From a virus, in the IMG/VR virus record IMGVR_UViG_3300037502_002391, positions 1 through 64,000 of that record: a stretch of 64,000 nt of DNA, one strand, 5' to 3'. The position numbers and the translations under genes were made by a program. How positions within the stretch are numbered: the stretch's first letter is position 1; every line of letters starts with the position of its first letter. Of the stretch, positions 1-2,064 are shown one piece after another. Below the pieces are notes generated by a model that was given only the letters and a program-made list of their open reading frames with translations, was not told where the DNA came from and did not search any database.

Positions 1-713
1 TTTCCCTGGATGCCCTCACCAATCAACTCACCTTGTATTGCAAAGTTCTTGTTTTTGGCTCTCATCTTGTTCTCCAAATCAAGTTCCCTTGCAACCTTCC
101 AGAAAGTATTCCCCTCTGTTTCCAATAATTCAAGATTTCTTGAACAAACACCAAACTCACCATTGTTTATGTAGAATGTTGCAGAAGATCCATCCAGTTT
201 TTCTGTTATATAGAAATCATCATTTGATTCTATATATGTCTTATAATCATTTGGAATATTCTGGGCTCTAATTTCATCTGTCTTGGAAATGAAGGATGGA
301 AACATTCCTTTTGCCAACCCAGAAAGTTCAGGTGAAATTGGTGTTTCATACTTCACAATACCCAACATTTCTGTCACATCCATACCCTCTTCAAGAGATA
401 TTTCAGAACCTAAAACAGAAATAGGCAATATCAACCCCTGGGAGATTTGCCCCCTCATTTTTACAGTTCTCAATCGAAAACCCTCTGCTTCAGTTGATTT
501 CCTATATGAAGATTTTCTTAAAAATTCAAACTCTTCTTTAATAGGTAAGAAGGAATCAATTTCACAATACACAATGAAATCACCCACCTTATGTTCAACA
601 TTCTTGGCAACAACAACTTGCCATCCATCCACAATGGCCAACTCAATGTTGTCAGCACCTTCAATTTGTCTTAACTCTGATATTTTTCTAATGCTTGCAA
701 GTTTCCTTTCCAT
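1..713 (-). CDS. RNA ligase (ATP-dependent), DRB0094/Rnl2-like family; 3' end runs off the window
   Basis: Absent from the ORF track. Translated by hand from ATG at 713: MERKLASIRKISELRQIEGADNIELAIVDGWQVVV...YCEIDSFLP...RLRTVKMRGQISQGL...KTDEIRAQN...ITEKLDGSSATF...CSRN...AIQGELIGEGIQG. Motif I KxDG and QGE are present. Confidence 0.9.
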   Translation of the reverse strand, partial: MERKLASIRKISELRQIEGADNIELAIVDGWQVVVAKNVEHKVGDFIVYCEIDSFLPIKEEFEFLRKSSYRKSTEAEGFRLRTVKMRGQISQGLILPISVLGSEISLEEGMDVTEMLGIVKYETPISPELSGLAKGMFPSFISKTDEIRAQNIPNDYKTYIESNDDFYITEKLDGSSATFYINNGEFGVCSRNLELLETEGNTFWKVARELDLENKMRAKNKNFAIQGELIGEGIQG

Positions 714-740
714 ATTATTTTTTTTGTTTAGTTAAAAATT

Positions 741-770
741 TCCCCCTACCCAGGTATTTGAGTAGGGGGA
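741..770 (-). terminator. Intrinsic terminator-like hairpin
   Basis: TCCCCCTAC...GTAGGGGGA stem, followed by ATTTTT on the minus strand, just after the 776-1042 gene. Confidence 0.65.
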
Positions 771-775
771 TTTAA

Positions 776-1042
776 TCAATCTACTAAAGTTTCAATCTTT
801 GATTTGTTGATTATATGATCTGTGATTGTATAATCCTCCACTTTTGTCAAGATGACACATTTGGATAAAATCTTATAAGGAACATTGATTAAGAAATCAT
901 TTCCATTATAGAACTGGAGGGTATTCTTTAACTGTAAGGATCCGTGTATAGATTTTAGGAATAACTTGAACTGTGTCTTATCAACAAAATTCTCATTGAT
1001 TAAATTCTCATTCTTATAAATTACTCTAATGTTGTGTGTCAT
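776..1042 (-). CDS. Hypothetical protein
   Basis: Start moved to the ATG at 1042 (MTHNIRV) because the track start lies inside the promoter. Confidence 0.7.
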   Translation of the reverse strand: MTHNIRVIYKNENLINENFVDKTQFKLFLKSIHGSLQLKNTLQFYNGNDFLINVPYKILSKCVILTKVEDYTITDHIINKSKIETLVD

Positions 1043-1063
1043 GTTCTTGTTTTTTTGTTGATG

Positions 1064-1095
1064 CAAATTTAAAGTAAAAAAATGAATTAACCAAA
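1064..1095 (-). promoter_or_regulatory. Bacteroidota primary-sigma promoter (-33 TTTG / -7 TAAATTTG)
   Basis: Minus strand reads TTTG-N20-TAAATTTG, matching TTTG-N19-21-TAnnTTTG. Confidence 0.85.
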
Positions 1096-1114
1096 TCTTT
1101 TTTTCATTATTTTC

Positions 1115-1201
1115 TGGGTTAGGTCATCATCATAGCCACACATTGACCTTTCTTATCAGAAGCCCTATTAACAGGCTACTCCTGGAAGTGTGGATCACCC
1201 A
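1115..1201 (-). ncRNA. Candidate structured RNA with a pseudoknot (family unknown)
   Basis: GC-richer intergenic segment with complementary pairs TGGGT/ACCCA, CCACAC/GTGTGG, AGGTCA/TGACCT, CAGGA/TTCTG and AGCC/GGCT. Confidence 0.5.
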
Positions 1202-1217
1202 TTGATTCTTTTTAACA

Positions 1218-1553
1218 CTAGATTACATACTCTGGAATTCTTTCAATTGAATCATCTATTGTATCCAATAACCCATCACAATATACATCTTTGATTTCTT
1301 TCTTAACTCTTCCAAGAGTATTCACCAAATACACATCATACAAATCACTGCCATTTAATGTAATCAAAACCCAGCCTTTGTGCCTACGGGCAGACACTCT
1401 TAAAAGCAAACCCTTATTGCTTAAATTTATTGTTTTTGACACACCAAAAGACCAGAACACAGGTTGATTATATGTGAGCCAACCCATTGTTTCCTGGGGG
1501 TTAAATTCTAATTTGTCTTCAAGTAAAGGTTTGATTGCTGTTATGATTTTCAT
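1218..1553 (-). CDS. Hypothetical phage protein
   Basis: 111-aa ORF directly behind a host-type promoter. Confidence 0.75.
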   Translation of the reverse strand: MKIITAIKPLLEDKLEFNPQETMGWLTYNQPVFWSFGVSKTINLSNKGLLLRVSARRHKGWVLITLNGSDLYDVYLVNTLGRVKKEIKDVYCDGLLDTIDDSIERIPEYVI

Positions 1554-1572
1554 TTTGGTTGTTTTGTTGATG

Positions 1573-1604
1573 CAAATTTAATACAAAGAAATGAATTAAA
1601 CAAA
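1573..1604 (-). promoter_or_regulatory. Bacteroidota primary-sigma promoter
   Basis: TTTG-N20-TAAATTTG. Confidence 0.85.
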
Positions 1605-1609
1605 TTTTT

Positions 1610-1852
1610 CTACACCAATTCTGGTTGATTTTTTTTAAAACCATTCCAATGGTTTATAACCCTCTCACAAGCATATGGTCTATGACCATATAATCCTTTA
1701 TTAGTAACCATATGCATTCCTGTTTCACCAAACATCCACCACTGAAATTCTATTCCAGATTTAACACAATATAGTTTGCAACCATTACCCCAAGACCATA
1801 ATAGACCTTTTGCTTCAATTTCTATTTCTTTTGCTCTAACTTCTGGTTTCAT
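1610..1852 (-). CDS. Hypothetical protein
   Basis: Start moved to the ATG at 1852 (MKPEVRAKE); the upstream part of the track ORF overlaps a separate small ORF. Confidence 0.65.
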   Translation of the reverse strand: MKPEVRAKEIEIEAKGLLWSWGNGCKLYCVKSGIEFQWWMFGETGMHMVTNKGLYGHRPYACERVINHWNGFKKNQPELV

Positions 1853-1874
1853 ATTAATTTTGTTTAGTTTGGTT

Positions 1875-2009
1875 TTAAAGTATTTTCCAAGAATATGTAG
1901 TATAACTATTACGAAGAAACCGATCACATTCTTTTTTTGTCTTGAACTCACGCACAAACACCCTGCCTGTCTTCTTTTCTGTTAATTCTAACACTTGCGG
2001 CTTTCTCAT
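1875..2009 (-). CDS. Small hypothetical protein (44 aa)
   Basis: Not in track: MRKPQVLELTEKKTGRVFVREFKTKKECDRFLRNSYTTYSWKIL, directly behind the promoter at 2033-2064. Confidence 0.65.
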   Translation of the reverse strand: MRKPQVLELTEKKTGRVFVREFKTKKECDRFLRNSYTTYSWKIL

Positions 2010-2032
2010 AGTGGTTGGTTGTTTTGTTGATG

Positions 2033-2064
2033 CAAATTTATAGCAAATAATTCAAACCACCAAA
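2033..2064 (-). promoter_or_regulatory. Bacteroidota primary-sigma promoter
   Basis: TTTG-N20-TAAATTTG. Confidence 0.85.

What the first reader, a model, noticed from the sequence alone, without database searches (positions are those of the whole stretch)
1115..1201. Compact pseudoknotted ncRNA candidate among early genes near the RNA ligase
Seen, minus strand: UGGGU GAU CCACAC UUC CAGGA GU AGCCU GUUAAUA GGGCU UCUG AUAAG AA AGGUCA AU GUGUGG CUAUGAUGA UGACCU A ACCCA. It has a closing stem, two hairpins, and CCACAC pairing with GUGUGG in the second hairpin loop. G-U pairs favour the minus strand. It is GC-rich relative to its surroundings and is not terminator-shaped. I could not match it to hammerhead, HDV-like, twister, pistol or a riboswitch. 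Possible roles are ribozyme, decoy RNA or ligase substrate.
Basis: seen in the sequence. Interest (0 to 1): 0.7.

Follow-up and report, generated by a model that had tools for sequence, protein, structure and literature searches.

The report
Conserved pseudoknotted RNA after phage gene
An 87-base stretch after a small early gene of an uncultured freshwater jumbo phage is a real, evolutionarily maintained folded RNA (three helices plus a pseudoknot) that matches no known RNA family, sits where relatives have a plain transcription terminator, and has no established function.

Summary
Window 1115-1201 (minus strand) reads as described and lies between a 111-aa gene (1218-1553) and the next promoter. 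Twenty homologous loci (14 distinct sequences) carry it. Compensatory changes occur in all four helices, including the CCACAC/GUGUGG pseudoknot (A-U, G-U, G-C) and the closing stem (G-C, G-U, A-U). 90.6% of cells pair, against 21-51% when partners are slid. A tree-aware null gives P about 0.001. Junction bases GA, UUC, AUAAGAA and A never vary, while 66% of third codon positions next door do. Folding energy alone is unremarkable (z -0.3).

Rfam 15 has no match. It is not a tRNA, a terminator or a hammerhead. It always follows the 111-aa gene, whatever gene comes next. The sister clade (78-84% protein identity) has a classic terminator in that slot.

My best reading is a cis-acting 3'-UTR/intercistronic RNA module for processing or 3'-end stability. 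The structure is well supported (about 0.85). The function is inferred (about 0.4). Rivals are a trans-acting RNA linked to the downstream RNA ligase, a new ribozyme, a switch or antiterminator, and a protein operator. The family is narrow, with one copy per genome. I could not check whether it is already in the 2023 phage csRNA catalogue.

The parts
1115..1201 (-). Whole 87-nt structured RNA element (position i of the RNA = window 1202-i)
   Evidence: Sequence. CM hits of 94-122 bits in 20 homologous loci. Covariation.
1197..1201 (-). P1 5' strand UGGGU, pairs with 1115-1119
   Evidence: 100% paired in 14 variants. The second pair is G-C (11), G-U (2) or A-U (1).
1115..1119 (-). P1 3' strand ACCCA
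1194..1196 (-). Junction GA(U/A). GA is invariant; the third base varies.
1188..1193 (-). Pseudoknot 5' strand CCACAC, pairs with 1136-1141
   Evidence: 100% paired. The third pair is A-U (12), G-U (L038) or G-C (L040). This helix was not part of the CM used for alignment.
1185..1187 (-). Junction UUC, invariant. It could pair with GAA of J2/3, but there is no variation to test this.
   Evidence: the pairing is my inference.
1157..1184 (-). Hairpin 1: 7-bp outer stem, 2-nt bulge, 3-4 bp inner stem, variable 4-5 nt loop
   Evidence: Pair 25-50 of A4 is C-G/G-C/U-G and pair 26-49 is A-U/G-U. Loop sequence and length vary.
1150..1156 (-). Junction J2/3 AUAAGAA, invariant in all 17 distinct loci
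1121..1149 (-). Hairpin 2: AGGUCA/UGACCU (6 bp here; 4-bp core GGCU/AGCC in other clades). Its 17-nt loop holds the pseudoknot 3' strand.
   Evidence: Two adjacent pairs swap U-A/C-G and C-G/U-A between clades. The terminal pairs are lost in clades B/C.
1136..1141 (-). Pseudoknot 3' strand GUGUGG in the hairpin-2 loop
1218..1553 (-). 111-aa early gene of unknown function; the element starts 16 nt after its UAG stop
   Evidence: ORF. Homologs. No Pfam, PHROG or NCBIfam match. AF2 model pLDDT 84.7, no clear structural match.
1573..1604 (-). Promoter-like site TTTG-N20-TAAATTTG (Bacteroidota type) in front of the 111-aa gene
   Evidence: Pattern scan: 18 matches against 9.5 expected. That it is a promoter is inferred.
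1064..1095 (-). Near-identical promoter-like site just downstream of the element, in front of the 88-aa gene
   Evidence: It is absent in L027, L030 and L035, where the next gene starts 30-35 nt after the element.
776..1042 (-). 88-aa gene downstream. It is not a constant neighbour of the element.
741..770 (-). Intrinsic terminator (12-bp GC-rich stem + T-run) after the 88-aa gene
3..713 (-). RNA ligase gene with an N-terminal OB domain (cut by the window edge; 350 aa in a relative)

Best explanation
The element is a genuine structured RNA under purifying selection. A 5-bp closing helix (P1) encloses a three-way junction with two hairpins. The 5' junction strand CCACAC pairs with GUGUGG in the loop of hairpin 2, giving an H-type pseudoknot. 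The junction strands GA, UUC, AUAAGAA and A are invariant.

It is transcribed on the gene strand as the 3' UTR or intercistronic spacer of the 111-aa early gene's mRNA. It fills the slot that holds an ordinary intrinsic terminator in related phages.

Most likely it acts in cis on that early transcript as a shape-specific processing or 3'-end/stability module. A host or phage factor, or the RNA itself, would use the fold to define or protect the end of the upstream message, while transcription runs on into the variable cassettes downstream.

Shown: the sequence, the fold with covariation, the conservation, the linkage to the upstream gene, the terminator in the same slot in relatives, and the lack of any known family.

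Inferred: that it is transcribed with the 111-aa gene, that it acts in cis, and the processing/stability mechanism. My confidence that it is a real functional RNA structure is about 0.85. My confidence in the cis processing/3'-end role is about 0.4, and that is the figure entered below.
For: Structure:
- 20 loci (14 distinct sequences) align to one model.
- 90.6% of 385 cells pair, against 21-51% when partners are slid. 0 of 500 shuffles reach the observed pairing or covariation score.
- Both-sided changes that keep pairing occur in P1, the pseudoknot, hairpin 1 and hairpin 2.
- RNAalifold on an independent MAFFT alignment recovers P1, H1 and the H2 core.
- A tree-aware null gives P<=0.0008 for kept pairing and P=0.0016 for 5 or more compensated pairs.

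Selection:
- 73 of 111 third codon positions of the adjacent gene vary.
- Only 7 of 31 unpaired element positions vary, all in hairpin loops or at base 8.

Linkage to the upstream gene:
- All 21 loci (window included) whose 111-aa protein is 88% or more identical, and whose contig reaches past the gene, carry the element right after the stop codon.
- The next gene is one of four unrelated small genes, in three loci without an intervening promoter.

Terminator slot:
- L041, L042 and L051-L053 (78-84% identity), and L045 and L046 (55-57%), have a GC hairpin plus T-run there.

Strand:
- It is co-oriented with all flanking genes.
- G-U pairs favour this strand, 90.6% against 84.9%.

RNA libraries:
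- A metatranscriptome contig spans 1040-1348 across the element. This is weak, because DNA carry-over is not excluded.
Against: - Nested folding energy is no better than shuffles (z -1.3 to 0.0 in six variants).
- The homolog set is shallow. There are three sub-clades, so each helix rests on only one or two independent events.
- A simple hairpin would be enough to block 3' exonucleases, so an invariant junction core and a pseudoknot look over-engineered for mere stabilisation.
- No discrete RNA ends could be seen. Only low-depth contigs were available.
- No processing factor or cleavage site is identified.
- The two terminal pairs of hairpin 2 are not kept in clades B/C.
- In those clades an alternative AUAAG/CUUAU hairpin competes with hairpin 2.
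Confidence: 0.4

Rival explanations
1. It is a trans-acting small RNA cut out of the early transcript. It could be a decoy or mimic for a host factor, or a partner or substrate of the phage's RNA-repair enzymes such as the downstream Rnl5-like RNA ligase.
For: - Invariant junction core with variable apical loops, which suggests recognition by shape.
- An RNA ligase homolog lies 0.4-1.9 kb downstream on the same strand in all 12 element-bearing loci with enough sequence.
- The ligase is not found on the contigs of relatives that lack the element.
- The helix order resembles a tRNA whose D arm is replaced by a strand that pairs with the 'T-loop'. This is my reading, not tested.
Against: - The ligase association is confounded by phylogeny; one gain would explain it. 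The sister-clade contigs are only 4-9% complete.
- Variable cassettes lie between element and ligase, and in the window a terminator does too.
- The element has no promoter or terminator of its own.
- No host look-alike was found in 151 sampled genomes of the phylum of a Bacteroidetes MAG.
- It is not a tRNA by ARAGORN, even at relaxed thresholds.
Confidence: 0.2
2. It is a self-cleaving ribozyme of a new class that cuts the early polycistronic transcript behind the 111-aa gene.
For: - Its size (87 nt), its pseudoknot-locked multi-helix junction with invariant unpaired bases, and its intergenic position in a phage are typical of small ribozymes.
- It replaces a terminator, so it could supply the 3' end.
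Against: - No match to any Rfam ribozyme model at E<=10.
- The CUGA next to hairpin 1 is part of a covarying pair, not a hammerhead core.
- It is single-copy with a very narrow distribution, unlike most self-cleaving classes.
- A metatranscriptome contig runs uncut through the element (weak evidence).
Confidence: 0.1
3. It is a cis regulator of what lies downstream: a ligand-sensing riboswitch or a put/EAR-like processive antitermination RNA that lets RNA polymerase read through later terminators, such as 741-770 in front of the ligase gene.
For: - The conserved junction core resembles an aptamer.
- In L027, L030 and L035 the next gene has no promoter of its own.
- The ligase gene starts 28 nt after a terminator, with no promoter-like site between them.
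- An alternative 3-bp helix in the hairpin-2 loop overlaps the pseudoknot strand, which hints at a possible switch.
Against: - The downstream gene differs between loci and usually has its own promoter.
- There is no expression platform: no terminator or start-site sequestering helix after the element.
- No match to any Rfam riboswitch family.
Confidence: 0.08
4. It is the binding site (operator or RNP partner) of the 111-aa protein encoded just upstream.
For: Strict physical linkage of the element to this gene in 21 loci, whatever follows.
Against: - Homologs at 78-84% identity do without the element.
- The predicted fold (two helices, a five-stranded sheet, a C-terminal helix) has no clear match to RNA-binding folds. 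The best Z is 6.2, to a protein of unknown function.
- Protein operators usually conserve apical loops, and here those vary.
Confidence: 0.07
5. It is not a functional RNA. The alternatives are conserved intergenic DNA (a protein-binding palindrome or recombination joint of the cassette array), a tiny ORF (MCGYDDDLTQKIMKKRFG), or a chance fold.
For: - Unremarkable folding energy.
- The neighbouring promoter DNA is also well conserved.
- An 18-codon ORF starting in the pseudoknot strand stays open in several variants (my reading).
Against: - Compensatory changes occur in non-nested helices, with G-U intermediates. Neither a DNA site nor an ORF explains these.
- The ORF's length and C-terminus differ between clades, and its changes are mostly non-synonymous.
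- The tree-aware null is rejected.
Confidence: 0.1

Closest known systems
PeSL (promoter-early stem-loop) cassette boundaries of T4-type phages (recalled from Arbiol, Comeau & Krisch 2010; not read here)
   Same: - An array of small early genes, each headed by a near-identical host-type promoter.
- A structured element sits just upstream of the next promoter.
- Cassettes are shuffled between relatives.
   Different: - The 'stem-loop' here is an 87-nt three-way junction with a covarying pseudoknot and an invariant junction core, not a simple terminator hairpin.
- The promoters are of the Bacteroidota type.
- Only one cassette carries the element.
Intrinsic (Rho-independent) terminator
   Same: It occupies the same slot, a few bases after the stop codon of the same gene, as bona fide terminators in relatives.
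   Different: - No T-run follows; the 3' flank is A-rich.
- It is multi-helix and pseudoknotted.
- The terminator scan does not call it.
tRNA and tRNA-like processing signals (t-elements, mascRNA, TLS; from memory)
   Same: - Similar length.
- The 5' and 3' ends pair in a closing stem that can stack on the 3' hairpin.
- There is a central long hairpin.
- A 5' strand contacts the loop of the 3' hairpin, as the D-loop contacts the T-loop.
- It is intercistronic, like the 'punctuation' model.
   Different: - No D stem, no T-loop consensus, no anticodon-like loop (the loop varies in length and sequence) and no 3' CCA overhang.
- ARAGORN finds nothing at relaxed thresholds.
- No Rfam tRNA-clan hit.
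Small self-cleaving ribozymes (hammerhead, twister, pistol, hatchet, HDV-like)
   Same: It is a compact pseudoknot-constrained junction with invariant unpaired bases, lying in a phage intergenic region.
   Different: - No covariance-model match.
- The helix order (P1, PK 5' strand, hairpin 1, hairpin 2 with the PK 3' strand in its loop) does not map onto HDV or pistol topologies as I recall them.
- The hammerhead core boxes are absent.
Junction-plus-pseudoknot aptamers (such as THF-I and SAM-I) and cis antitermination RNAs (put of HK022, EAR of Bacillus); from memory
   Same: - A loop-to-junction pseudoknot locks a multi-helix junction.
- EAR also lies between genes inside an operon.
   Different: - No sequence or structure match in Rfam.
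- No expression platform.
- No constant downstream gene.

Membership tests
Any Rfam 15 family (4227 covariance models) | Match to the family covariance model at or near its gathering score | tested here: not met
   No gathering-score hit in the whole window. With only the element given, at E<=10, the only hits are chance snoRNA/miRNA fragments of 13-15 bits against cut-offs of 43-88.
Hammerhead ribozyme | Three helices around the core CUGANGA / GAAA / UH | tested here: not met
   J1/2 is GAUCCACACUUC, with no CUGANGA. The C of the only CUGA is half of a covarying base pair (C-G/G-C/U-G). No Rfam hit.
tRNA / tmRNA | Cloverleaf with D, anticodon and T arms, detectable by ARAGORN | tested here: not met
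   No genes in the window. None in 14 variants at 60-80% thresholds. The only calls were spurious opposite-strand 'mitochondrial' ones in 3 of 14.
Intrinsic terminator | GC-rich hairpin directly followed by a U-tract | tested here: not met
   The 3' flank is GAAAAUAAUGAAAAAAAG. The scan finds terminators at 741-770 but none at the element.
Riboswitch (generic) | Aptamer joined to an expression platform and associated with a consistent downstream gene set | tested here: not met
   Four unrelated downstream genes, most with their own promoter, and no terminator or start-site helix after the element. Ligand binding cannot be tested here.
Type III toxin-antitoxin RNA (ToxI-like) | Tandem array of short pseudoknot repeats upstream of a toxin gene | tested here: not met
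   One copy per genome in five phage records and in the window. It lies downstream of its neighbouring gene, not upstream.
Self-cleaving ribozyme (generic, new class) | Site-specific self-scission in vitro | not testable with these tools
   Only contigs of RNA libraries were available. One contig spans the element uncut.
Evolutionarily conserved structured RNA (generic criterion) | Compensatory covariation in the proposed helices beyond phylogenetic expectation, and conservation above the neutral rate | tested here: met
   (P about 0.001); 23% of unpaired positions vary, against 66% of third codon positions.
csRNA catalogue of phage structured RNAs (Fremin, Bhatt & Kyrpides 2023, PMC10690425) | Presence among the 8495 IMG/VR-derived models | not tested
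   The paper's supplementary models are not held. Its pipeline needed at least 3 unique IMG/VR v3 regions and one covarying pair, so inclusion is possible.

The most novel reading that the evidence does not exclude
The element is the founding member of a new functional RNA class. One possibility is a new self-cleaving ribozyme. Another is a tRNA-shaped 'punctuation' signal that jumbo phages of Bacteroidota use in place of a terminator to cut early transcripts. It might work together with the RNA ligase that always lies downstream.
Probability: 0.12. Interest if true: 0.85.

Novelty: categorically new. Interest (0 to 1): 0.55.

Why it matters
Most candidate phage RNA motifs are simple hairpins. 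A pseudoknot-locked three-way junction with an invariant core is the level of complexity seen in ribozymes, aptamers and tRNA mimics.

This one has a clean natural comparison: sister phages carry a plain terminator in the same slot. That makes its function directly testable. If it proves to be a processing signal, a ribozyme or an RNA-repair partner, it would add a new RNA tool to early gene expression in jumbo phages of Bacteroidota, a group with almost no RNA biology described.

'New' here means no known RNA family fits. Whether the mechanism is new is unknown. The family is small and restricted to one freshwater phage lineage.

Tried and rejected
- Rfam search of the 1-kb region, the whole window, and the element alone in two variants found nothing real.
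- ARAGORN at default and relaxed thresholds found no tRNA or tmRNA.
- blastn of 700-1700 against 50,697 phage records gave no match. tblastn of the SbcC-like protein found only distant uncultured or cyanophage hits, so no cultured relative is known.
- Pattern scans of IMG/VR returned only the five related contigs plus one chance match in a coding region, L021.
- A pattern scan of 185,579 species genomes returned one chance match inside a bacterial ORF, L050, which the model does not score.
- Model R2 found no second copy in the window with filters off. It found none in three more distant phage records, none in the terminator-type loci, and none in 151 sampled genomes of the phylum of G011. Two metagenome records (L047, L049) are not held and were not searched.
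The ENA/Logan contigs encoding homologs P0003-P0009 and P0011 could therefore not be fetched.
- Metatranscriptome contigs were laid on 600-1700. They cover the element at depth 2-4 and one contig bridges it, but contigs cannot show ends, strand or level, and DNA carry-over is possible. The parts without cover mean nothing.
- Function of the 111-aa protein: no Pfam, PHROG or NCBIfam match. Foldseek gave no E<=0.001 hit. VIA-align's best Z was 6.2, to a protein of unknown function, with weak rows for the T4 MotA C-domain, secretion chaperones and immunity proteins. The Atlas gave only viral hypothetical clusters.
- Read-through or recoding of the UAG stop is rejected. A UAA follows two codons later in the window and the extension is not conserved. 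The 137-aa form P0010 is a TGA read-through call across a terminator.
- The small-ORF reading is rejected as the cause of the covariation.
- A literature search found no description of this motif.

Full report
**What is there**

The window is the first 64 kb of an 82-kb IMG/VR virus record, estimated 27% complete, so it comes from a jumbo phage. A 90%-complete relative is 270 kb.

The stretch lies in a 175-base gap between the stop codon of a 111-aa ORF (1218-1553) and the ATG of an 88-aa ORF (776-1042). An RNA ligase gene with an N-terminal OB domain (PF21189 + PF09414, phrog_968) follows at 3-713.

GC content is 0.42-0.43, against 0.22-0.31 in the flanks. No T-run follows the element, and the terminator scan does not call it.

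**Is it more than chance?**

From the one sequence alone it is not convincing.
- The nested minimum free energy is -22 kcal/mol, with z = -0.31 against dinucleotide shuffles.
- Five other variants give z between -1.3 and 0.0.
- A perfect six-base match between the 12-nt junction and the 17-nt loop has a chance of roughly 0.02 (my arithmetic).

Comparison with homologs decides the matter. Searching for homologs of the flanking 111-aa protein in IMG/VR and in JGI metagenomes gave 32 loci. A covariance model built from three variants hits 20 of them at 94-122 bits, always right after the gene. These make 14 distinct sequences.

On that alignment, 90.6% of 385 pair cells are standard pairs. When the 3' partners are slid by 1-3 columns the figure is 21-51%. 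No shuffle out of 500 reaches the observed pairing or covariation score.

Every helix carries a both-sided change that keeps pairing:
- P1: G-C, G-U, A-U.
- Pseudoknot: A-U, then G-U in L038, then G-C in L040. This helix was not part of the model used for alignment.
- Hairpin 1: G-C / C-G / U-G.
- Hairpin 2: two adjacent swaps, U-A to C-G and C-G to U-A.

RNAalifold on an independent MAFFT alignment recovers P1, hairpin 1 and the core of hairpin 2.

I also ran a tree-aware null. The observed number of changes in each paired column was re-dealt on a tree built from the flanking gene. It gave a mean of 51 broken cells (sd 9.5), against 24 observed (P<=0.0008). It reached five compensated pairs in 0.16% of runs, and both results together in 0 of 5000 runs.

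Single-sequence folding flips between hairpin 2 and the CCACAC/GUGUGG helix from variant to variant. That is what a nested-only algorithm does when both helices exist.

**Selection**

Among 17 distinct loci, 66% of third codon positions of the adjacent gene vary, and third-position identity between the main clades is about 0.6. Only 23% of unpaired element positions vary. Those lie in the hairpin loops and at base 8.

The junction strands GA, UUC, AUAAGAA and A never change. A conserved junction core with free apical loops points to a function that depends on the three-dimensional core.

**Strand**

All neighbouring genes are on this strand. The G-U pairs give 90.6% canonical cells on it, against 84.9% on the opposite strand. 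Three RNA libraries from one study hold the locus at low depth, and one contig bridges 1040-1348. Contigs cannot prove transcription or show ends.

**Context**

The small genes here are each preceded by a near-identical TTTG-N20-TAAATTTG site followed by GCATCAACAAAA. The sites are at 2033-2064, 1573-1604 and 1064-1095. The pattern occurs 18 times in the window, against 9.5 expected.

From established knowledge this is the Bacteroidota promoter consensus, so the host is probably a Bacteroidota. That is an inference.

Across relatives, the gene that follows the element is one of four unrelated small genes of 88, 44, 66 or 81 aa. In L027, L030 and L035 the next gene starts 30-35 nt after the element with no promoter between them. 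The element is therefore tied to the upstream 111-aa gene and is co-transcribed with it.

In the sister clade (L041, L042, L051-L053; 78-84% protein identity) and in more distant homologs (L045, L046), the same slot holds a textbook terminator: a GC hairpin plus a T-run. Still more distant homologs go straight into the next gene.

There is one copy per genome and no paralog. No copy was found in more distant phage relatives, in species-representative prokaryote genomes by pattern, or in 151 sampled genomes of the phylum of a Bacteroidetes MAG by model.

**What it is not**

- It matches no Rfam 15 family at any useful score.
- It is not a tRNA or tmRNA.
- It is not a terminator.
- It is not a hammerhead. 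The only CUGA is half of a covarying pair, and no CUGANGA box is present.
- It is not a repeat array like ToxI.
- It is not a typical riboswitch, because there is no expression platform and no constant downstream gene.
- As I recall their helix orders, it does not map onto HDV-like or pistol folds. This was not tested beyond the Rfam models.

**How it most likely works**

The shown facts are a precisely conserved fold, fixed just behind the stop codon of one early gene, in the place of a terminator, with transcription evidently continuing into variable downstream cassettes.

The reading that needs the fewest extra assumptions is a cis-acting module of that transcript. The fold would be recognised by a nuclease, or cut by itself, to set the 3' end of the upstream message. 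Alternatively it shields that end, while the polymerase runs on.

Geometrically, P1 can stack on hairpin 2 through the single-A linker, and the pseudoknot can stack on top. Hairpin 1 would project sideways, and the A-rich AUAAGAA strand could line a groove. This is inference.

The helix order also resembles a tRNA whose D arm is replaced by a strand that pairs with the 'T-loop'. That makes an RNase P/Z-type 'punctuation' role conceivable, but it is untested.

I put about 0.85 on 'real functional RNA structure' and about 0.4 on the cis processing/3'-end role.

**Rivals**

- *Trans-acting RNA or ligase partner (0.2).* An RNA ligase homolog lies 0.4-1.9 kb downstream in all 12 element-bearing loci with enough sequence. 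It is absent from the fragmentary contigs of relatives without the element. One evolutionary event could explain this, and variable cassettes and a terminator lie between the two.
- *New self-cleaving ribozyme (0.1).*
- *Switch or antiterminator acting downstream (0.08).* The ligase gene starts 28 nt after the terminator at 741-770 with no promoter-like site between them, so read-through must occur somehow.
- *Operator of the 111-aa protein (0.07).* The protein's predicted alpha+beta fold has no clear match.
- *No RNA function (0.1).*

**Limits**

- The homolog set is shallow, with three sub-clades.
- No read-level RNA data were available.
- The 2023 catalogue of 10,006 candidate phage and virus RNAs (PMC10690425) could already hold this motif, but its models are not held here.

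**Verdict**

The structural interpretation is supported. The function remains open. By every test available here this is a new RNA family, narrow in range and of moderate interest.

Noticed in passing
window 1064-1095, 1573-1604, 2033-2064 (minus strand): Three near-identical Bacteroidota-type promoter-like sites (TTTG-N20-TAAATTTG followed by GCATCAACAAAA) each head a small gene. The pattern is enriched in the window, 18 matches against 9.5 expected. This suggests a Bacteroidota host and host-RNA-polymerase early transcription.
   Followed up: partly
window 776-2064 compared with L027-L040 (downstream of the element): The small early genes (44, 66, 81 and 88 aa) are shuffled in order and presence between close relatives. 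The 44-aa and 81-aa-like genes lie upstream of the 111-aa gene in the window but downstream of it in other loci.
   Followed up: partly
window 713-770 (minus strand): A strong intrinsic terminator (12-bp stem, 741-770) is followed 28 nt later by the RNA ligase start codon, with no promoter-like site between them. Ligase expression seems to need terminator read-through.
   Followed up: no
L004 compared with window (ligase gene): Between clades, the 111-aa protein is 93-96% identical but the RNA ligase 0.4-1.9 kb away is only 55-60% identical. This sharp mosaic boundary suggests recombination within the early region.
   Followed up: no
element positions 60-62 with 72-74 (window 1140-1142 with 1128-1130): RNAalifold proposes a 3-bp helix (UGU with AYR) inside the hairpin-2 loop that overlaps two bases of the pseudoknot strand. 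Only one-sided, pair-keeping changes are seen. In clades B/C an AUAAG/CUUAU hairpin also competes with hairpin 2. These may be alternative conformers.
   Followed up: partly
window 1218-1553 (minus strand): The 111-aa protein folds with confidence (pLDDT 84.7) into two N-terminal helices, a five-stranded antiparallel sheet and a C-terminal helix. It has no convincing structural or family match. Homologs occur in phage contigs of up to 627 kb.
   Followed up: partly
P0010 / L041-L042, L051-L053: A public 137-aa form of the 111-aa protein is a gene-calling artefact. TGA is read as Trp, so the frame runs through the terminator hairpin.
   Followed up: yes
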